A DNA stretch of 64,000 nucleotides from Flaccisagitta enflata (GCA_965153355.1 OZ231126.1:31682001-31746000), one strand, 5' to 3'. Shown: positions 3,041 to 51,900, numbered from the stretch's first letter. The notes: generated by a model not told the origin, from the letters alone. Translations and numbers: made by a program.

Positions 3041-9001
<5,961 letters not shown>

Positions 9002-38444: not shown

Positions 38445-39619
38445 TATGTGAGGTTCATTTCGTTTTTTAAATATAATCGCCCATACAAAAGATGCCGTCG
38501 TTGAAGAAACAGAACATAACAGATCAGCAATCAATATTCATATTGCAGTATTATTGCACACAAAAAAACTTTTACATTCATTTTTCATTCATTTTCACAT
38601 TTATCTATGTTTTTTTTTTTTGCTCTTTCTCACTGAATAGATACAAATTATGCATTCGAATGTTCTGCCCAAAATCTATGGAAGCTTTTTCGCCCCGTGC
38701 TGCGCGACTCAACACCCCGCTTTGTCCGTCCGTCCATTGGTCGATCGGTCTGTCGGTTGGTTGGCCCATCACATTTTACTTTTTTTATGATTTTTTTCTT
38801 TGACCTTACTGCTCCTGCCCAAATGGTCTAGTGACCCCAAATATGGCCCCTGCCCACCCAGACGCGACTGGGGTAGCCATGAATCCGGCCTTGTTTTATC
38901 ACTCCTCTGCCCACCTGCACGCGACTTGGGTAGCCGTGTATCCGGCCTTGTCTTTTTGAGCCTCCATGCCGAGGAAATAAATATCGCGGAAAAGTGTCAA
39001 TGAAGGAAATGTAGGCGGGAGAAGGGAAAAACCTATTGAGGAAGTAAATTCATGTATAACTCTGGGAAAATCCTGGAGGCTAAATTTAATTAAGTAATGT
39101 CATTGCCGCTACCATGCCAATGGAACAAACAACGTGGGCAAGTGTCGAGGACAAAAAAAAGGGGAAAACCCACAAAGAGAAGAACCAGGCCAGATGTCCA
39201 GTAGATTCTTCCACTTTAGTGTTTAGTTATAAGATATTACACAGTTACAGGCAATCTCTCGATAATTCTCCCAATGAGAAAAATCCTTTATTATATTTCT
39301 TTTCATAAAACGGTAAAGCGATTTATGAATATGTACCATCTCCCTGCCCCCAAGGCCCCAACCCTCTACCCCCTACCCCACTTGCCCCCAACACCCCGCT
39401 CCTGACTAAGTGAATTTCAACCCTCTGGTCGTCGGTTGGTCGGTTTGTCCAGTTGCCTCATCAAAAAAAACAAACATGAGAATGGCATATCGAGTTGCCT
39501 TCAAGAGAATTTTAGGTTTCAGTACTTTGATTTAAAGGGTGTGGTTCATATTCAATAATCAGTCCTCATCCTAACATCTTATTCCATCTTTATCTTGTAA
39601 GAGGCAGGATATGGTTAAA

Positions 39620-40209
39620 CAGGGTGTTTCATGCCAAATTAGATACAAGAAAACAATATCATTCTGCTTCTAAAAATGCAAAAATAATTTTGAAAAAAGA
39701 TTCAAAGAGCACTTTAGCTCTGATTTTTTGCGTAAAAATTTCATGGGTTTGGGTCAAATATCTTGGCCACAACATCAATTTGAAGTAAAATGAGCATTTA
39801 AAGCAGAAGCTCTTTTCACATAATTTTGATTTTGAAAGGTTTTTTTTTTTAAGTGCTCTCATTTCTAAACGGCTTGAGCCGCAGATGCCAAATTGGTCTC
39901 AAATGAAAGAAAATTCAATAAGCTTTAATCTGAGACCAATCTGGTATCTGTAACTAACATCGTTTTGAAATGAGAGCACTTAAAAGAAGAACTTTTAAAT
40001 CAAAATTATGTCAAAAGAGCTTTCCTTTTAATTGCTCATTTTACTTCAAATTGATATTGTGGCCAAAATATTTGACCCACACCCATGAAATGTTTACACA
40101 AAAAATCGGAGCTTAAGTGCCCTTTAAAACTTTTTTCAGAACTATTTTTGCATTTTTAGAAACAGAATGGCATCGTTTTCTTATATCTATTTTGGCATGA
40201 AACACCATG
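39620..40209. mobile_element. Fully palindromic MITE
   Basis: CAGGGTGTTTCATGCCAAA versus TTTGGCATGAAACACCATG; the arms are complementary to the centre at about 39916. Confidence 0.85.
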
Positions 40210-40590
40210 TAGCTCATGGCGGGACTGATATGAGCCATGAGCAGTGATCGTTATATGCGTTATTGGATTAGTCATAGATTATCATTGTTGTCACTGTTCA
40301 CCGATTGCTATTCATTGCCCTCTGATGCTATCAATGCTATTTGGTTATACATTCGATATCTCTTTGTTCCATAGTTGATAGCAGATTCAGGGGTATTTAG
40401 CCGCTCGCTTAGCTCATTAGCTATCATCGATATTCTCCAATCGTCTGTTCTACTTTCAGATAGCTGCTCACTTAGGAAGCTCATTCATTCGTTAGCTAAC
40501 TCTATCTCTGGCGAGCCTATCCCAGACCACAATAAGGACATCTCTCTTTGGGTCTACGGAGAAGCCTGGACGTCTCTGGAAGGTAGGCAG

Positions 40591-41538
40591 CATCGGATTG
40601 CGTAGAAAATTCGGAAACCCGTTTTTTGTCACGTTTTGCTATTCCCCAATAGCATCAAAGACACTATAGTTACGATTTTTGCATATAACGACTTCATTTC
40701 TGGTCGTTACGGTCTTTTTAAAGCTATATAAAGCTATCAAAAGCTATTAGAAGCTATTTACAAATATTTGAAGCTATTCAAAGCTAGTTACTAAACATAA
40801 AATGAAATATATGTATGTGTCTGTCTGTCTTTCTGTCTGTCTGTCTGTCTGTCTCACTGTATCTCTGTAATTATCTCTCTATGAGAGACAATTTCAAGTT
40901 AAGCATGTCAGAGAATGATTGATCATTTTCTAACTTTGGTCATTTTCTATCAAAACATTCTTGATAAAAGGAATATAAAAATGCTCATATGTAACTGTTT
41001 TAAAGAATTTAGAATTAAAGTATATGAAACTAGAATTTAAATATGAAACCTTAAATATCAAAGGTTAATAAAAGAGGAAAAAGAAAAACTGTATACCAAA
41101 AATTAAAAGTGGAAAAAATAAAAAGAAAAAAAGTCAAAAGAGAAAAAAAAATAAAAAAATTAAAAAACAAGAAAATAAAAAAGAATAAAAATTTCAACAA
41201 TGAAATATAAAAAATGGAAAAATTAAAATGAAAAATAAAAAGTGAAAAATGAAAAATAAAAAGAAGATAAAAGATAAAAAATAAAAAATGAAAAGTGAAA
41301 AGTAAAAAAAATCATTATTAATGATGAATTTAATATATAATATTTTTTATCTTGGTTTTTTTTTTCAAATGATCACAAAAAATCCATAATGAGTTAAAAA
41401 GATGGATAAAAAAAAATGACAGCAATGACAGCAGTAATAACGCCTCAAATAACGCTATATAGACTCCAAAATGGCGTTACGTTACCATGGCGAATACCGG
41501 AAATGGCGTTACTACAGAAGTCGTTATGCAATGGGTTG
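40591..41538. mobile_element. hAT-like non-autonomous element inserted in the LTR
   Basis: 8-bp TSD GTAGGCAG (40583-40590, 41539-41546); imperfect TIR CATCGGATTGCGTA / TATGCAATGGGTTG. Confidence 0.7.
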
Positions 41539-41585
41539 GTAGGCAGCTTGCAAGATCTGGCCGCCTACAACTGCCACTGTACAAC

Positions 41586-41650
41586 TGGTGCATCGGCCGG
41601 AAATCGAACCCAGGCTGCCCGCGTGGCAGGCGAGCATTCTACCACTGAAC
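41586..41650 (-). pseudogene. Processed, 5'-truncated tRNA-Gly(GCC) copy with encoded CCA (extended primer-binding site)
   Basis: The minus strand reads GTTCAGTGGTAGAATGCTCGCCTGCCACGCGGGCAGCCTGGGTTCGATTTCCGGCCGATGCACCA, i.e. eukaryotic tRNA-Gly(GCC) from position 10 to CCA. The 5' acceptor strand is absent. Confidence 0.9.
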
Positions 41651-42311
41651 GTCAAGCGTGCGGTCGATCTTTTCGAGGATCCTGCAGTCGTCAAGAGTGA
41701 GTACTTCTTCCGCTACCGCGCCCCCCTCCCGAAGAAATACCGAAAGGCGATCGATTTGGGATGCGAAGAAGATGCTCGCACCATCGAAAATGCTAAGAAG
41801 TGCGCGCTTCGACTTCAGCTCTCCGAGGCCGACGATGATGACGACGCATCCTCCAAGAACGTGGCTTTTTCGGGTGCCGCGATGGCTGATAACACTGGCA
41901 ATGATCGTGTTAAAGCACTCGAAATGGGTTTCTAAGAACTAAGTCTGCACATGGGAAATCTTTCTGAGTCCATGCAGAAACTCCAAAGAGACGACCGTCC
42001 GGCCAGTCGTGGGCCGGACCGTCGTGAGGACTCTAAATCCAGCCGTCGCGGGGACTACAGCCGGGAGAGAGATATTCCCCGCCATGACAGTCGAGACCGC
42101 AGCCGCCGCGATGACTATGACCGCCGCCGCAATGAATCCCGTGGGTATGGGACCGCAACTGTTACGACCGTAGCAGTAGTAGATACGACAGCCGCGATCG
42201 TCACGGTAGTAGGTACGACAGCCGCGATCGTCGCAGTAGATACGACAGCCGCAACCGTCGCGACAGTGTTAGTCACAGCAGCCGCGACCGCCGCGACAGC
42301 CGGGATCGCCG
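41651..42311 (+). pseudogene. Decayed gag-like coding region (Arg/Asp/Ser-rich C-terminus), probably Ty3/gypsy-type
   Basis: ORFs 41588-41935 and 41951-42394 share a frame across one TAA; a frameshift near 42150 continues RYDSRDR repeats; GC-rich and directly after the LTR and primer site. The family assignment is inference. Confidence 0.5.
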
Positions 42312-44890
42312 CACCGTGGCTAAAAACCAGCCCCGACGCAGACCGGGGACCAACCAACCCCTCAACCAACCTAAGACGCCAACACCGTGGCTAAAATCCA
42401 CCCCCGACGCAGACCGGGGACCAACCAACCCCTCAACCAACCTAAAACACCATCACCGTGGCTAAAAACCACCCCCGACGCAGACCGGGGACCAACCAAC
42501 CCCTCAACCAACCTAAAACACCATCACCGTGGCTAAAAACCACCCCCGACGCAGACCGGGGACCAACCAACCCCTCAACCAACCTAAAACACCATCATTG
42601 TGGCTAAAAACCACCCCCGACGCAGACCGGGGACCAACCAACCCCTCAACCAACCTAAAACACCATCATCGTGGCTAAAAACCACCCGCGCGGACCGGGG
42701 ACCAGCCAACCCCTCAACCAACCTAAACACCATCACCGTGGCTAAAAACCACCGCGCGCAGCCGGACCAGCCAACCCTCAACCAACCTAAAACACCATCA
42801 CCGTGGCTAAAAACCACCGGCGCGGGCCGGGGACCAGCCAACCCCTCAACCAACCTGAAACACCATCACCGTGGCTAAAAACCACCCCGCGACCAGGGAC
42901 CAGCAGCCCCTCAACCAACCTAAAACACCATCACCGTGGCTAAAAACCACCCCGACGCAGACCGGGGACCAGCCAACCCCTCAACAGCCTAAAACACCAT
43001 CACCGGCTAAAACCACCGACGCAGACCGGGGACCAGCCAACCCTCAGCAACCTGAAACACCATCACCGTGGCTAAAAACCACCCCCTGCAGACCGGGGAC
43101 CAACCAACCCCTCAACCAGCCTAAAACACCATCACCGTGGCTAAAAACCACCCCCGACGCAGACCGGGGACCAACCAACCCCTCAACCAACCTAAAACAC
43201 CATCACCGTGGCTAAAAACCACCCCGGCGCGGACCGGGGACCAGCCAACCCCTCAACCAGCCTAAAACACCATCACGTGGCTAAAGCCACCCCGGCAGAC
43301 CGGGGACCAACCCTCCGCCAACCTAAAAACACACCATCGTGGCTAAAAACCACCCCGACGCAGACCAGGACCAGCCAGCCCTCAACCAACCTAAACCACC
43401 ATCACCGTGGCTAAAACCACCCCCGACGCAGACCTGGGACCAACCAGCCCCTCAACCAACCTAAAACACCATCACCGTGGCTACAAAAACCACACCGGCG
43501 CAGACGGGGACCAACCAACCCCTCAGCCACCTAAACACCATCACCGTGGCTAAAAACCACCCCGGCGCGAACCAGGACCAACCAACCCTCAACCAACCTA
43601 AAACACCATCACCGTGTTAAAAACACCCACGCTGCAGACCAGGACCAGCAGCCTCAACCAGCCTGAAACACCATCACCGTGGCCTAAAAAACACACCCCG
43701 GCGCGGGCCGGGGACCAAGCAACCCCTCAACCAGCCTAAAACACCATCACCGTGGCTAAAGACCACCCGGCGCGGACCGGGGACCAGCCAGCCCCTCAGC
43801 CAACCTGAAACACCATCACCGTGGCTAAAACCACCCCCGCGGACCGGGGACCAACCAGCCCCTCAGCCAGCCTAAAACACCATCACCGTGGCTAAGAACC
43901 ACCCGGCAGACAGGGGACCAGCAACCCCTCAACAACCTACAACACCATCACCGTGGCTAAAAACCACCCGACGCAGACCTGGGACCAACCAACCCCTCAA
44001 CCAACCTAAAACACCATCACCGTGGCTAAAAACCACCACGGCGCGGTGGGATGGCAACAACCCCTCAGCACCTAAAACCACCACCCCGGCAGCAGACTGG
44101 GACCAACCAACCCCTCAACCAGCCTAAAACACCATCACCGTGGCTAAAACCACCCCGCGGGCCGGGGACCAGCCAACCCCTCAACCAACCTAAAACACCA
44201 TCACTGTGGCTAAAACCACCTCCGGCGCGGCCAGGACCAGCCAACCCCTCAACCAACCTAAAACACCATCACCGTGGCTAAAAAACCACCGGCGCAGACG
44301 GGGACCAACAAACCCCAACCAACCCTCAACCAGCCTAAAAACACCATCACCGTTGGCTAAAACCACCCCAGCGCAGACCAGGGACCAGCAACCTCAACCA
44401 ACCTAAAAACACCATCACCGTGGCTAAAAACCACCCCCGACGCAGACCGGGGACCAACCAACCCCTCAACCAACCTAAAACACCATCACCGTGGCTAAAA
44501 ACCACCCCCGACGCAGACCGGGGACCAACCAACCCCTCAACCAACCTAAAACACCATCACCGTGGCTAAAAACCACCCCCGACGACGCCAACCAACCAAC
44601 CCCTCAACCAACCTAAAACACCATCACCGTGGCTAAAAACCACCCCCGACGCAGACTGGGGACCAACCAACCCCTCAACCAACCTAAAACACCATCACCG
44701 TGGCTAAAAACCACCCTCGACGCAGACCGGGGACTAACCAACCCCTCAACCATCCTAAAACACCATCACCGTGGCTAAAAACCACCCCCGCCGCAGACTG
44801 GGGACCAACCAACCCCTCAACCAACCTAAAACACCATCACCGTGGCTAATAACCACCCCCGACGCAGACCGGGGATCAACCATCCTACAC
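42312..44890 (+). repeat. 71-bp tandem satellite, about 36 copies
   Basis: Unit CACCGTGGCTAAAAACCACCCCCGACGCAGACCGGGGACCAACCAACCCCTCAACCAACCTAAAACACCAT. Confidence 0.95.
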
Positions 44891-45427: not shown

Positions 45428-46592
45428 AAAAAAGCTTAAAAACAACAGTCCTCGACTGTAGTCTATTTGGTGTCCGACCCGGCTACTCAGTCTGATCGGC
45501 TACTCAGTCTGACCCGGCTACTCAGTCTGACCCGGCTACTCAGTCTGACCCGGCTACTCAGTCTGACCCGGCTACTCAGTCTGACCCGGCTACTCAGTCT
45601 GACCCGGCTACTCAGTCTGACCCAGACCCATGATGGCATACCTTGAAGTTCATGGTGGCATACCTTGAAGTTCATGGTGGCATACCTTGAAGTTCATGGT
45701 GGCATACCTTGCAGCCTATGATGGCATACCTTGCAGCCTATGATGGCATACCTTGAAGCCCATGATGGCATTCCTTGAAGTCCATGAAAGCATACCTTAA
45801 AATCCAACAATAAAAAAGATAACAAAAAATTTTCAAATTTTTCAAAAAAAAATAAAAAATTTAAAGAAAAAAAAATAAATAATTTAAAAAAAAAAAATTT
45901 TTTTTTTAAATTTTTCAAAAAATTTTTCAAAAAAAAAAAATTCCAAAAATAAAAAAAATTTTTTTCAAAAAATTTTTCAGAAAAAAATTTTCAAAAAAAA
46001 AAAATTCTTAAGTCCAAGAAATAATGTTACTAGATACATCATAAATACCCTTATATTTTCTTAACCAATACTCAGAATTTACTGAAATCTCGCAGGGGAG
46101 CTTTAATTGATGCAGTGAACCTTGACAACAAGTTTGAACAACATTGGTGAACCTTTACTACCATTCCCCTATGTAAATTGCACAAGTCTAGGAATTAATA
46201 TTACTAGCAAAATACCCTTATATCTTCTAAACAAATACTCAGAATTATCTGAAATCTTGCAGGGGAGCTTTAATTGATGCAATAAACCTTCACAACAAGT
46301 TTGAACAACATTGGTGAACCTTTACTACCCTTCCCCTATGTAAATTGCACAAGTCCAGGAATTAATATTACTACAAAAATAATAGGCAAAGGGTATGAAA
46401 TATTTATGAATGTTGTTGAAAGTTGGTACACAGGTTAGTAATACCCTCAAAATAACACTGACCAAGTTTCATCAACATCTGAGTTGTGGTTCTCAAGTTT
46501 TTAAGGGTTGACACAAACGACGACAAACAACGACTCACTACACAATGGCTATGTTATAGTCCTCGACGTAAACTGATTGTCGAGGACAAAAA
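45428..46592 (+). mobile_element. Helentron-like non-autonomous element with internal minisatellites, copy 1
   Basis: 5' GTCCTCGAC; 3' hairpin GTCCTCGAC-GTAAACTGATT-GTCGAGGAC then AAAAA; 18-bp (GACCCGGCTACTCAGTCT) and 21-bp (CATGATGGCATACCTTGAAGT) arrays; internal duplication of about 170 bp; second copy at 50388-51852. Confidence 0.75.
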
Positions 46593-48969: not shown

Positions 48970-51900
48970 CAGTTTTTTGTCCTGAACAAGACTGGACGGG
49001 GTACACGTCTGATTTTTTAGTGTACCCCATTAAAAACGCGTTTTTTCCATAAAAAAACACTTTGAAGTGGCGCTGACGCCAAACCAATTGACCAATGACT
49101 ATAAAATATTAGGTGAAGAAAAATATACATTTTTTTACTCGCATGTAAAATTTCAGCAAAATCGCTTCAGTAGAAGTGGAGCTATGGCGGTTTAAAGTCT
49201 GGGTCTATTTTCAAAAAAAGGGCTATGATTCAATTTTGGGGTAAAATTTCGTTTTTTTGAGCTTAAAGTCTGAAACTGTTTTTAGACATTCATTTCACCC
49301 TGATGCATGCAAGAAACAAAAAAAATTGTAAAAATCTGGTGTTTTTTTCATTTTTTGGCTTAAAAACCAAAAAATTGAGTCTCAAAATTTAGGCTAGATC
49401 TTCAAAAAAGGCTTGGTCAAGGAAAATATTGAAATCAAGGGCGCCCACTTGAGGAATCTATTGTCATGAAGTGTACCAACTTATTCCCAAACTTTCAGAG
49501 GGATACGCCAATCTGAAAAGACAAAAAATCACTTCAAAGTTCAACAAAAAAAGAACAAAAATTATGCACTTTTAGACTCCTTGGGACATATAGTAATGCT
49601 ACAGCCAAACGCCTCATCCGATTTGCCTAAAATTTTGCATGCAACTCCCAATATGTGAGGGGAATAAATGTGCCAAATTTCAGCCTCCTTATCAAACATT
49701 GAATTTTTTCAAATGTCCAAGCGGGTCTAAAAATGCAAAATTTTGGGATTTTTTTTTTAAACCTTGAAATGATTTTTTTGTCTTTTTAGGTTGGCGTACC
49801 CCTCTGAAAGTTTGGGAATAAGTTGATACACTTCATGACAATAGATTCCTCAAGTGGGCGCCCTTGATTTCAATATTTTCCTTGAACAAGCCTTTTTTGA
49901 AGATCCAACCTAAATTTTGAGACCTAATTTTTTGGTTTTTAGGTCAAAAAATGAAAAAAACGCTAGATTTTTTTAATTTTTTTTTTTTTGCATGTATTAG
50001 GTTAAAATGAAAGTCAAAAACAGTTTCAGACTTTTAGCTCAAAAAAAACAAAATTTTACCCCAAAACTGAAACATAGCCCTTTTTTTGAAAAAAGACCTA
50101 GACTTTAAACCGCCATAGCTCCGCTTTTACTGAACCGATTTAGCGGAAATTTTGCATGCAAGTAAAAAAAAGGCATATTTTTTTTTCACCTAAAACTTTA
50201 TACAGACGGGACCCTAATAAGAGCAGAGGAGGGACCCAAAGTTTTAGCATCACCCCCTACAGCCTATATGGCTCAAGCAATTTACTTAATTGCTATGGCG
50301 GATTACACCTTGGGTGGATACAATTGGCGCCACCGTGGCGATTTTTGAATTTCCACCTAAAACACCCTCAAATTTTTAAAATTGAAGAAAAAAAGCTTAA
50401 AAACAACAGTCCTCGACTGTAGTCTATTTGGTGTCTGACCCGGCAACTCAGTCTGACCCAGCTACTCAGTCTGACCCAGCTACTCAGTCTGACCCGGCTA
50501 CTCAGTCTGACCCGGCTACTCAGTCTGACCCGGCTACTCAGTCTGACCCGGCTACTCAGTCTGACCCGGCTACTCAGTCTGACCCGGCTACTCAGTCTGA
50601 CCCGGCTACTCAGTCTGACCCGGCTACTCAGTCTGACCCAGCTACCAATTGCATACAGAGGAAGGAGAAATATAAGATGTGAACCCCCCTAAAACTGTAG
50701 CACCCCCCCTTACAGCTCAAACTACAGCAATAAATAATGAATTTAACATTGCCAATTGTAGCTTATGACTATACAAGTGGCGCCACCAAAGCAATTTTGC
50801 AATTTCCATTCCAGTCTTAAATTATAATGGAAAAACGTTGATTTTTTGAACTTTTAGTAATAGTTAATTTTAATACTTTATTAAGCTATATCTTGACTTA
50901 GAAAACAAAAATGAAAAATCGCTCTGGTGACGCCACTTGTATTCATATAAACATTTTTCCTCTACCTTTAAAATATCTATAATCTAATTAGTTAGAGCTG
51001 TAGGGGGGGGTGCTACAGTTTTCAGGGGGTTCACACCTTATATTAACCTTCTCTTTGTACCTTAAAGTCCAAAAAGAAAAAAAAATCTTTTTCAAAAAAC
51101 ACAAACAATTCTTTTTAAAAAGAAAAAAAAATTTTCAAAAAAAAAAAAAAATTTAAAAATTTAAAAAAAAAAAATTTAAAAAAAAAAAATTTTTTTTTTT
51201 TCAAAAATTTTTTTTTTAAAAAATTTCAAAAGAAAAAAAAACATTTTTTTCGAAAAAATTTTTTTTTTTAAGTCGAAGAAATAATGTTACTAGATACATC
51301 ATAAATACCCTTATATTTTCTTAACCAATACTCAGAATTTACTGAAATCTTGCAGGGGAGCTTAAATTGATGCAATGAACCTTCACAACAAGTTTGAACA
51401 ACATTGGTGAACCTTTACTACCATTCCCCTATGTAAATTGCACAAGTCTAGGAATTAATATTACTAGCAAAATACCCTTATATCTTCTAAACCAATACTC
51501 AGAATTATCTGAAATCTTGCAGGGGAGCTTTAATTGATGCAACAAACCTTCACAACAAGTTTGAACAACATTGGTGAACCTTTACTACCCTTCCCCTATG
51601 TAAATTGCACAAGTCCAGGAATTAATATTACTACAAAAATAATAGGCAAAGGGTATTAAATATTTATGAATGTTGTTGAAAGTTGGTACACAGGTTAGTA
51701 ATGCCCTAAAAATAACACTGACCAAGTTTCATCAACATCTGAGTTGTGGTTCTCAAGTTTTTAAGGATTGACACAACGAACAACGAACGGCTTACTACAC
51801 GATCAGTGCTATGTTATAGTCCTCGACGTAAACTGATCGTCGAGGACAAAAATGGGTTTAATTTTTCGAGAGTCCAGAGGGTGATTTTGCAAAATCTAAG

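What the first reader, a model, noticed from the sequence alone, without database searches (positions are those of the whole stretch)
41561..41660. LTR element with an almost whole-tRNA primer site that stops exactly at tRNA position 10
Seen: 16 nt after the LTR-like end CCGCCTACA there are 65 nt complementary to tRNA-Gly(GCC), starting at TGG (the CCA end) and ending at G10, then joining directly to gag-like sequence. Established: eukaryotic tRNA genes do not encode CCA; LTR primer sites are normally 18 nt or less because plus-strand synthesis stops at m1A58; m1G9 (Trm10) is an RT-blocking modification known on yeast tRNA-Gly(GCC). Inference: the RT read through A58, copied the primer up to the next block at position 9, then switched template into gag. 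That would be a DNA fossil of tRNA modification state, or a family with an unusually long primer site.
Basis: partly seen in the sequence, partly recalled or inferred. Interest (0 to 1): 0.75.

Follow-up and report, generated by a model that had tools for sequence, protein, structure and literature searches.

The report
Primer tRNA copied into a retrotransposon
A dead retrotransposon copy in a marine animal's genome carries, where its short primer site should be, a DNA copy of almost the whole glycine tRNA that primed it, joined straight into the middle of its capsid gene, which is a rare natural trace of a known error of reverse transcription.

Summary
At 41586-41650 (+ strand) lie 65 nt that are the reverse complement of a tRNA-Gly(GCC), from the CCA end to the first base of the D stem, position 10 (Rfam tRNA, 30.7 bits). 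They sit 16 nt after CCGCCTACA.

That motif is a real LTR end. The LTR is split by a 946-bp nested insertion with a 10-bp target duplication. Other copies are contiguous across that site, and one continues after the LTR end with a normal 9-nt primer site for the same tRNA.

The downstream sequence is the gag of a Ty3/gypsy-type family. Similarity to other copies begins exactly at the tRNA position-10 junction, so 138 N-terminal gag residues and the leader are missing.

The same junction is encoded on three independent metagenome contigs, so it is not an assembly artefact.

Best reading: plus-strand DNA synthesis ran through the primer tRNA to nucleotide 10 and then joined non-homologously into gag. 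An m1G9 block is plausible but untested.

The 16-nt spacer is unexplained; it resembles the last 12 nt of the tRNA copy.

Primer-tRNA read-through is known in vitro and in retroviral DNA, so this is a new example of a known kind of error. It is a single, old, defective copy.

The parts
39010..41569 (+). 5' LTR of a Ty3/gypsy-type element, interrupted by two nested insertions. The start is a candidate only; the end is firm.
   Evidence: TGTAGGCGG at 39010 is the inverted complement of the end CCGCCTACA at 41561-41569, and each occurs once in the window. The letters that precede 41538 in other copies (loose ends) are the window's 40559-40581, so the LTR is contiguous in other copies. No second LTR copy is in the window.
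39619..40210 (.). MITE-like inverted-repeat element nested in the LTR
   Evidence: Arms 39619-39847 and 39982-40210, 229 nt, 86% complementary (I3).
40592..41537 (.). 946-bp nested insertion flanked by a 10-bp target duplication, GGTAGGCAGC (40582-40591 and 41538-41547). Its last ~170 bp are a very high-copy repeat.
   Evidence: Script check of the duplication. Summed contig depth at 41439-41537 is about 1.5-2.6e5, against 1e2-3e3 further right. Many contigs end at 41538 or 41540 with unlike flanks.
41570..41585 (+). 16-nt spacer between the LTR end and the tRNA copy; unexplained
   Evidence: Another copy reads T then TGGTGCATC directly after 41570. Bases 41571-41582 match the last 12 nt of the tRNA copy (41639-41650) at 10 of 12 positions. 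That level is reached by 159 of 20000 shuffled spacers and 72 of 20000 random window 16-mers.
41586..41650 (-). DNA copy of mature tRNA-Gly(GCC), nucleotides 10 to 76 including CCA. Positions 1-9 are absent.
   Evidence: Rfam tRNA 30.7 bits, model positions 10-63. The acceptor 3' strand plus ACCA was found by pattern. Host tRNA gene contigs match from 41589 without CCA and differ at 41601 and 41612.
41651..42310 (+). gag fragment starting at residue 139 of the family's gag. It has an in-frame stop at 41933-41935 and loses frame near 42150.
   Evidence: 13 homologous proteins, 34-92% identical. tblastn maps P0002 residues 135-274 to 41639-42055. Other copies continue upstream of 41651/41652 with coding sequence for ..KETFHALETR. 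The fold of the full-length relative resembles retroelement capsids.
42207..44885 (.). Tandem array of a 71-nt unit that replaces the rest of the element. No pol and no 3' LTR follow.
   Evidence: Repeat families D8, D12 and D16 with spacing 71. The sequence was read. No pol match in the window by tblastn.

Best explanation
This is a defective, old copy of a Ty3/gypsy-type LTR retrotransposon made by a faulty round of reverse transcription.

The family primes minus-strand synthesis with tRNA-Gly(GCC), annealed to a short primer site just after the 5' LTR. During plus-strand synthesis the enzyme copies the LTR and then the start of the primer tRNA, which is still attached to the minus strand. 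Normally it stops after the few bases that match the primer site.

In this case it went on through the T arm (past A58), the anticodon arm and the D arm, and stopped after copying nucleotide 10. That is one base before position 9, where many eukaryotic tRNAs, including yeast tRNA-Gly(GCC), carry m1G, a strong block to reverse transcriptases.

The 3' end could no longer pair with the minus-strand primer site. It was joined without homology to the minus strand inside gag. That removed the leader and the first 138 codons of gag.

The product entered the germ line. It later picked up two nested insertions in the LTR, point changes, and the loss of everything beyond gag.

Shown here: the LTR, the tRNA copy with CCA, its orientation and place, the primer identity, the exact break of homology, and the junction in independent data.

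Inferred: that the plus strand did the copying, that the stop was caused by m1G9, and that joining to gag happened during reverse transcription rather than later.
For: - The tRNA copy starts with the complement of CCA, which the host genes lack. It therefore derives from mature tRNA by reverse transcription.
- It lies in the sense of the LTR, at the place of the primer site, antisense to the tRNA. This is the arrangement of plus-strand strong-stop DNA.
- Another copy of the LTR end is followed by T and then TGGTGCATC. That is a 9-nt primer site for the same tRNA.
- Other copies of the downstream family continue upstream of 41651/41652 with gag coding sequence. Homology therefore breaks exactly at the tRNA position-10 junction.
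- The fragment begins at the first D-stem base.
- The same junction, with the same two substitutions in the tRNA part, is encoded by P0015 and P0016 on 1 + 2 metagenome contigs. P0015 is 113 of 115 residues identical to the window's reading frame as compared; one search gives 99% (P0015) and 98% (P0016).
- Passages read in papers: read-through of the primer tRNA with secondary stops at other modified bases is documented for HIV-1 (PMC8599865, PMC13191261). Yeast tRNA-Gly(GCC) is a Trm10 substrate, and m1G9 gives a strong stop in primer extension (PMC10704376).
Against: - 16 nt, not the 1-2 nt seen in another copy, separate the LTR end from the tRNA copy. Simple read-through does not predict this.
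- There is no microhomology at the tRNA-gag junction, so the joining step has no direct support.
- A later deletion could have set the position-10 end by chance. Roughly 1 in 15 by my own estimate, if any of about five known blocking positions would have been noticed.
- A58 is copied as a correct T at 41604. This fits an unmodified A58 but also a faithful bypass, so it says little.
- The modification state of the host tRNA, and even the base at position 9, were not seen.
- This is one event only. The three metagenome contigs may be alleles of the same locus.
- The canonical primer site rests on a single contig of a marine metagenome run (X2).
Confidence: 0.62

Rival explanations
1. Read-through did occur, perhaps to the very 5' end of the tRNA or to another point. 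The present end at position 10 and the fusion to gag would then come from a later genomic deletion that removed tRNA positions 9-1, the leader and the first 138 gag codons. On this view the end point says nothing about tRNA modification.
For: The copy is old and much rearranged. It has two nested insertions, a stop, a frame loss, and a tandem array in place of pol. There is no microhomology at the junction. Retroviral examples cited in PMC12220202 (passages read) lost only 4-5 nt at the tRNA 5' end, so copying nearly to the end does happen.
Against: The end falls exactly on the first D-stem base, one before position 9, which a random deletion would rarely hit. One event (read-through, stop, jump) explains both the end and the fusion. 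This rival needs two.
Confidence: 0.2
2. The long tRNA complement, or at least the D-arm-like 12 nt in the spacer, is a working feature of a sub-lineage. It would be an extended or two-part primer site that pairs with more of the tRNA, as in yeast Ty1 and Ty3.
For: The spacer matches the complement of tRNA positions 10-21 at 10 of 12, more than chance gives (159 of 20000 shuffles). The Ty3 review (PMC5371799, passages read) describes D-arm and T-arm contacts with Ty RNA. The junction ORF occurs in three slightly different versions: the window, P0015 and P0016.
Against: The copy lacks the gag N-terminus, pol and a second LTR. Only 2 proteins on 3 contigs carry the junction, and no longer ORF does. 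Another copy has a plain 9-nt primer site without the spacer. Differences of 1-2 residues in 115 fit alleles of one locus.
Confidence: 0.08
3. An unrelated tRNA retro-pseudogene, tRNA-derived SINE or neighbouring tRNA gene happens to lie next to a truncated element. Alternatively the join is an assembly artefact.
For: tRNA-derived repeats are common in animal genomes, and Ty3-like elements can land near tRNA genes (recalled, not tested). The region is full of repeats.
Against: CCA is present and the first nine nucleotides are absent, so it is not a gene. There is no target duplication around the piece. Its two flanks are not adjacent in intact copies: at least 138 codons plus the leader lie between them. 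The CCA end sits where the family's primer site for the same tRNA sits, in the matching orientation. The junction recurs on three independent contigs. No other copy of the piece is in the window.
Confidence: 0.05

Closest known systems
Read-through of the primer tRNA during retroviral plus-strand strong-stop synthesis (HIV-1 with tRNA-Lys3; PMC8599865 and PMC13191261, passages read)
   Same: The plus strand copies the attached primer beyond the primer-site length when the block at A58 fails. It then halts at further modified bases. Long products no longer match the minus strand.
   Different: Those are in vitro or cell-culture products, said not to give integrated DNA. Here the product is fixed in an animal germ line, runs to nucleotide 10, and was rescued by a non-homologous join into gag. 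The element is a Ty3/gypsy-type retrotransposon with a 9-nt primer site for tRNA-Gly(GCC).
Reverse-transcribed tRNA-Gly in retroviral DNA: Colicelli and Goff 1986 (MMLV circle; known to me only through PMC12220202) and Gurgo and Franchini 2025 (HIV provirus; PMC12220202, abstract and passages read)
   Same: A nearly whole tRNA-Gly with CCA, lacking a few 5' nucleotides, joined to an LTR end and linked with large deletions of the element.
   Different: There the tRNA is a non-cognate 'spurious' primer or self-primed. It lies between LTRs or outside the 3' LTR, and lacks 4-5 nt. Here the tRNA is the family's own primer, lies at the primer site inside the 5' LTR, and lacks 9 nt.
Hairpin-induced tRNA-mediated recombination in HIV-1 (Konstantinova et al. 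2006; known to me only through the mention in PMC12220202, the paper itself is not held)
   Same: 63-65 nt of a tRNA are built into the element by template switching and bridge a deletion.
   Different: That was an experimental system, with the insert at an engineered hairpin in nef, not at the primer site. I could not check the orientation or the end points.
Extended or bipartite primer sites of yeast Ty1 and Ty3 (PMC5371799, passages read)
   Same: Element RNA pairs with the T and D arms of the primer tRNA as well as its 3' end. The window's spacer is D-arm-complementary at 10 of 12 positions.
   Different: In Ty elements these are short separate boxes in working elements. Here there is a continuous 65-nt complement in a dead copy.

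Membership tests
Ty3/gypsy-type LTR retrotransposon | Two LTRs with TG..CA ends and short terminal inverted repeats | tested here: inconclusive
   One LTR only. TGTAGGCGG at 39010 and CCGCCTACA ending at 41569 are each unique in the window. No second LTR copy in the window. The LTR start is inferred, not seen in other copies.
Ty3/gypsy-type LTR retrotransposon | Primer site complementary to a tRNA 3' end directly after the 5' LTR | tested here: met
   A contig of run X2 reads T then TGGTGCATC after the LTR end. In the window the same tRNA complement follows after 16 nt.
Ty3/gypsy-type LTR retrotransposon | gag with a retroelement capsid fold | tested here: met
   Model of the full-length relative P0003: mean pLDDT 63, and about 81-91 over residues 31-190. 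The best Foldseek PDB matches are dArc1, MLV, PEG10, copia and PNMA2 capsids, with E 0.02-0.3 and probability 0.82-0.99. Each is weak alone, but they agree. Pfam finds no family.
Ty3/gypsy-type LTR retrotransposon | pol with reverse transcriptase, RNase H and integrase in that order | tested here: not met
   Absent from the window: the pol query had no tblastn hit. It is present behind the gag relative in locus L003, 38% identical gag, with RVT_1, RT_RNaseH, Integrase_H2C2 and rve. The window holds a fragment of such an element, not a whole one.
Primer-tRNA read-through product (extended plus-strand strong-stop DNA) | The tRNA complement starts at CCA, lies at the primer-site position, in LTR sense, and is the family's own primer species | tested here: met
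Primer-tRNA read-through product (extended plus-strand strong-stop DNA) | The normal short spacer between LTR end and tRNA copy | tested here: not met
   16 nt in the window against 1-2 nt in the other copy seen.
Primer-tRNA read-through product (extended plus-strand strong-stop DNA) | The copy ends one base before an RT-blocking modified nucleotide of the host tRNA | not testable with these tools
   The end is at position 10 by structure. m1G9 on the host tRNA-Gly(GCC) needs tRNA sequencing. It is known for yeast (PMC10704376, passages read).
tRNA-derived SINE or tRNA retro-pseudogene | Starts at tRNA position 1, is dispersed in many copies, has its own target duplication, and its flanks are adjacent at empty sites | tested here: not met
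   It starts at position 10 and occurs once in the window. There is no flanking duplication. The flanks are separated by the leader plus 138 codons in intact copies.

The most novel reading that the evidence does not exclude
The copy is a natural 'RT-stop' record of the primer tRNA. The primer molecule lacked a block at A58, which was copied faithfully as T, and carried one at position 9. The spacer, which looks like a second copy of the D-arm complement followed by a repeat of the LTR end (TACAAC), would record a further template switch between the U5 end and the primer. If so, fossils of this kind, mined across genomes, could map RT-blocking tRNA modifications and primer use in animals for which no tRNA chemistry exists.
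Probability: 0.3. Interest if true: 0.6.

Novelty: new member of a known kind. Interest (0 to 1): 0.45.

Why it matters
Textbook reverse transcription depends on the plus strand stopping after the primer-site bases of the tRNA. Papers on HIV say that longer products cannot pair and are lost.

This locus shows that such a product can survive in an animal germ line by a non-homologous join. It also keeps the exact point where the enzyme stopped. That gives a DNA-level hint about which tRNA primes this family and where that tRNA blocks a reverse transcriptase. It suggests a simple genome-mining test: a histogram of end points of over-long primer sites.

As a single dead copy it has no function for the host.

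Tried and rejected
- **Earlier notes of this scan.** Nothing by sequence, place or words.
- **Sequencing runs.** No listed holder is on record as RNA. One RNA read was laid, and only on the flank 41340-41405. This is no evidence either way on expression.
- **DNA runs X1 and X3.** No contig carrying the window's own letters at 41601 and 41612 was laid. The tool leaves out human-like records, and the best holder has only 0.38 of the words. This hole therefore says nothing about copy number or presence.
- **Scan of viral contigs with the 17-nt LTR end.** 16 hits. All 16 are unrelated coding contexts and none has a tRNA primer site.
- **Protein scan of viral contigs.** 64 pattern matches, none a relative.
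- **Metagenome contig scan.** 221 pattern matches gave 7 relatives, all only 38-45% identical. None shows this LTR or a tRNA-Gly primer site, and none has a tRNA-like stretch.
- **Pfam on the gag.** No family. The only weak hit is DUF7041 at E = 0.03 in 1 of 7 proteins.
- **Foldseek.** No PDB match at E <= 0.001.
- **Search for a longer ORF with the junction.** 4 hits among 19 candidates, all covering only the gag part.
- **Papers not held.** PMC1456326, PMC252783 and PMC1170264. Supplements were not consulted; those of PMC8599865 and PMC7293042 may list stops and m1G9 targets.
- **Literature searches**. I found no description of a germ-line LTR retrotransposon copy with the primer tRNA copied to position 10. 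This covers open-access papers only.
- **Microhomology at the tRNA-gag junction.** Looked for by eye; none found.

Full report
**1. The observation.** The window reads CCGCCTACA at 41561-41569 and then 16 nt, ACTGCCACTGTACAAC, at 41570-41585. TGG follows at 41586-41588, and a tRNA-like complement runs on to 41650. Rfam's tRNA model matches the minus strand at 41597-41650, model positions 10 to 63, with 30.7 bits against a gathering score of 29. It is the only match at gathering score in the window plus seven related loci, 78.5 kb in all.

In that alignment the first base of the fragment is the first base of the D stem, and the anticodon loop is CUGCCAC, so the anticodon is GCC. The 3' acceptor strand, the discriminator A and CCA complete it. 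ARAGORN finds no tRNA gene in the window, as expected for a piece that lacks nucleotides 1-9. The description of '65 nt, from the CCA end to position 10' is therefore correct.

**2. The host's tRNA genes.** I laid contigs of two DNA runs of the same organism and one marine metagenome run on 41340-42320. Contigs of real tRNA genes lie on the fragment. At 41601 and 41612 every contig covering the place, in all three runs, has G where the window has A. One contig of run X1 also differs at 41598. These contigs match from 41589 on, preceded by A-rich letters. On the gene strand that is a T-run after the discriminator.

The genes therefore do not encode CCA, and the window's piece derives from a mature tRNA through reverse transcription. 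It has since picked up two substitutions, at tRNA positions 50 and 61 by my count. I did not see the 5' part of the host gene, so G at position 9 is assumed.

In one search an extremely abundant repeat covers about 41370-41540. Its summed depth is about 1.5-2.6e5 at 41439-41537, against 1e2-3e3 to the right. It ends at 41538 or 41540 with many unlike flanks. Other contigs begin to match at 41538 and are preceded by 24 letters that the window holds at 40559-40581. A script confirms a 10-bp direct duplication, GGTAGGCAGC, at 40582-40591 and 41538-41547.

So a 946-bp element, whose tail is the abundant repeat, inserted into the LTR and duplicated its target. A MITE-like inverted repeat at 39619-40210 is nested further left (I3).

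TGTAGGCGG, the inverted complement of the LTR end, occurs once in the window, at 39010. I take it as the LTR start, which gives an LTR of about 1 kb without the insertions. This start is inferred. No second LTR copy, no pol and no N-terminal gag are in the window.

**4. The family's normal primer site.** One contig of the metagenome run matches the LTR end up to 41570 and then reads T, TGGTGCATC and unrelated leader (loose end of 215 nt). That is an ordinary short primer site, 9 nt, for the same tRNA whose near-whole complement stands in the window. This supports the primer identity independently. It rests on a single contig.

**5. The downstream sequence is gag.** I read the frame from 41654 with X at the one in-frame stop. 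It finds 13 proteins among 5861 candidates, all from ENA metagenome assemblies, 34-92% identical and up to 370 aa. A cluster member reaches 477 aa.

The alignment shows that the window lacks the N-terminal part. By tblastn, residue 139 of P0002 corresponds to 41651. The loose ends of other copies just before 41651/41652 encode ..KETFHALETR, the residues that precede VKRAVDL in the intact proteins. Homology to the family therefore begins exactly where the tRNA copy ends.

Pfam names no family. Two lines of evidence nonetheless support gag:
- A distant relative on a 4.9-kb contig (L003, 38% identical) is followed by a pol with RVT_1, RT_RNaseH, Integrase_H2C2 and rve.
- An AlphaFold model of P0003 (mean pLDDT 63, about 81-91 over residues 31-190) finds dArc1, MLV, PEG10, copia and PNMA2 capsids as its best PDB matches. 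These are weak (E 0.02-0.3, probability 0.82-0.99) but they agree.

'Gag-like' is therefore right, and the family is of Ty3/gypsy type.

The window's gag has a stop at 41933-41935 and loses frame near 42150. It ends in a 71-nt tandem array that runs from 42207 to 44885.

**6. The junction is real.** A search with the first 60 residues of the window's ORF 41543-41932 returned one protein, P0015. It has 115 aa, comes from an ENA metagenome assembly, and lies on a 5119-nt contig. It reads the tRNA-derived peptide and then gag, through the same stop, and is 113 of 115 identical. Its cluster has a second member, P0016, on two contigs, and one search gives 99% (P0015) and 98% (P0016) identity to the window's frame.

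Both carry the codons that reflect the window's two substitutions in the tRNA part. The join is therefore not an assembly artefact. The three versions differ by single residues, which fits alleles of one locus but does not exclude a few copies. A search among longer proteins gave 4 hits among 19 candidates, and all cover only the gag part.

**7. Mechanism.** The order on the + strand is LTR, tRNA complement starting at CCA, then gag in sense. The plus strand produces exactly this order if it copies the LTR from the minus strand, runs on into the primer tRNA still attached to that strand, and finally continues on minus-strand DNA.

A minus-strand error would place the tRNA in the opposite orientation. 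A tRNA gene, SINE or retro-pseudogene would not have CCA at the primer-site position, nor flanks that are over 400 nt apart in intact copies.

I therefore accept read-through of the primer as the core event, with confidence about 0.6 for the whole scenario. The stop after nucleotide 10 is what a block at position 9 would give. Yeast tRNA-Gly(GCC) is a Trm10 substrate, and m1G9 gives a strong stop in primer extension (PMC10704376, passages read). Whether the host tRNA has m1G9 is untested.

A58 is copied as a correct T at 41604. This is compatible with an unmodified A58 in that primer molecule but does not prove it. With a 9-nt primer site, this family's normal plus-strand stop may not depend on A58 at all. 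That is inference.

The junction has no microhomology: the tRNA copy ends ..CTGAAC, gag starts GTCAAG, and intact copies have ..ACGT before it. The join into gag may have been a non-homologous strand transfer, end joining of an intermediate, or a later deletion.

**8. The spacer.** Simple read-through predicts the normal 1-2-nt spacer, yet the window has 16 nt. Bases 41571-41582, CTGCCACTGTAC, match the last 12 nt of the tRNA copy, CTACCACTGAAC at 41639-41650, at 10 of 12 positions. That level is reached by 159 of 20000 shuffled spacers and by 72 of 20000 random 16-mers of the window. At the level of 8 of 9 matches, 193 of 5000 shuffles reach it.

The spacer can also be read as TACAAC, 8 nt, TACAAC. 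That would be a repeat of the LTR end plus spacer around a D-arm-like core.

I see two possible readings, neither tested:
- a further template switch between the U5 end and the primer, or
- a lineage-specific D-arm-binding box, as in the extended primer sites of Ty1 and Ty3 (PMC5371799, passages read).

It stays unexplained.

**9. What is known.** Reviews and a primary paper on HIV-1 describe plus-strand synthesis running past A58 when the methyl group is missing. They report minor stops at positions 55, 54 and 37 and run-off on unmodified tRNA, and they state that long products cannot complete transfer (PMC8599865 and PMC13191261, passages read).

PMC12220202 (abstract and passages read) reports 67 of 72 nt of a tRNA-Gly with CCA next to an HIV 3' LTR together with large deletions. 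It recounts Colicelli and Goff's circular MMLV DNA with a tRNA-Gly between the LTRs that lacks four 5' nucleotides. It also recounts tRNA inserts of 63-65 nt in HIV recombinants. I could not read those two original papers.

Six literature searches gave no report of a germ-line LTR retrotransposon copy of this kind. This covers open-access text only.

**10. Verdict.** The anchors are a real but split LTR, a canonical primer site in another copy, a gag of Ty3/gypsy type, an exact homology break, and independent contigs.

The modification-based cause of the stop is plausible but untested, and the spacer does not fit the simple model.

This is a new example of a known kind of reverse-transcription error. 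It is preserved in an animal genome: the window carries a LIX1 gene (Pfam E = 2e-95). It is old and dead. Its interest is moderate. It is a neat natural record, and it points to a mining approach that could make primer use and RT-blocking tRNA modifications readable from genomes.

Noticed in passing
window 8021-8998 (+): A 326-aa open frame matches Pfam LIX1 (Limb expression 1) at E = 2.2e-95. The window is therefore from an animal.
   Followed up: partly
window 42207-44885: A 71-nt unit is repeated in tandem about 37 times, directly after the arginine/aspartate-rich end of the gag fragment. The centre of the array is more decayed than its ends. Whether it belongs to a non-autonomous form of the element or arose later is open.
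   Followed up: no
window 41370-41540 (tail of the 946-bp insertion 40592-41537): A roughly 170-bp repeat with summed contig depth about 1.5-2.6e5 at 41439-41537, a hundred to a thousand times that of its surroundings. It ends at 41538/41540 with many different flanks. It is probably the 3' end of a very abundant retroposon. The insertion made a 10-bp target duplication.
   Followed up: partly
window 39619-40210: MITE-like element with 229-nt arms, 86% complementary, nested in the LTR (I3). Several similar inverted-repeat pairs lie elsewhere in the window: I2, I6 and I16.
   Followed up: no
window 45443-46454 and 50387-51714: Two direct copies about 4.9-5.3 kb apart (D11 and D19). Each starts with an 18-nt tandem repeat and holds 167-nt-spaced units that are 95% alike. 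They flank a CT-rich region. This may be the LTR pair of another, non-coding element.
   Followed up: no
L007 534-1463, and upstream of gag in L002, L005 and L006: In distant relatives of the gag (38-45% identical), what looks like a further open frame precedes gag; I listed it as an ORF only in L007, where it is about 300 aa and has no Pfam family. It may be an extra 5' gene in this group of elements.
   Followed up: partly
window 41933-41935; proteins P0017 and P0019: The in-frame stop after ..ALEMGF is shared with gag copies that have an intact N-terminus: P0017, whose sequence I read, and, going by its equal length of 233 aa, probably P0019. Most laid contigs have a sense codon there. The stop may predate the tRNA chimera, or it may have arisen more than once.
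   Followed up: no
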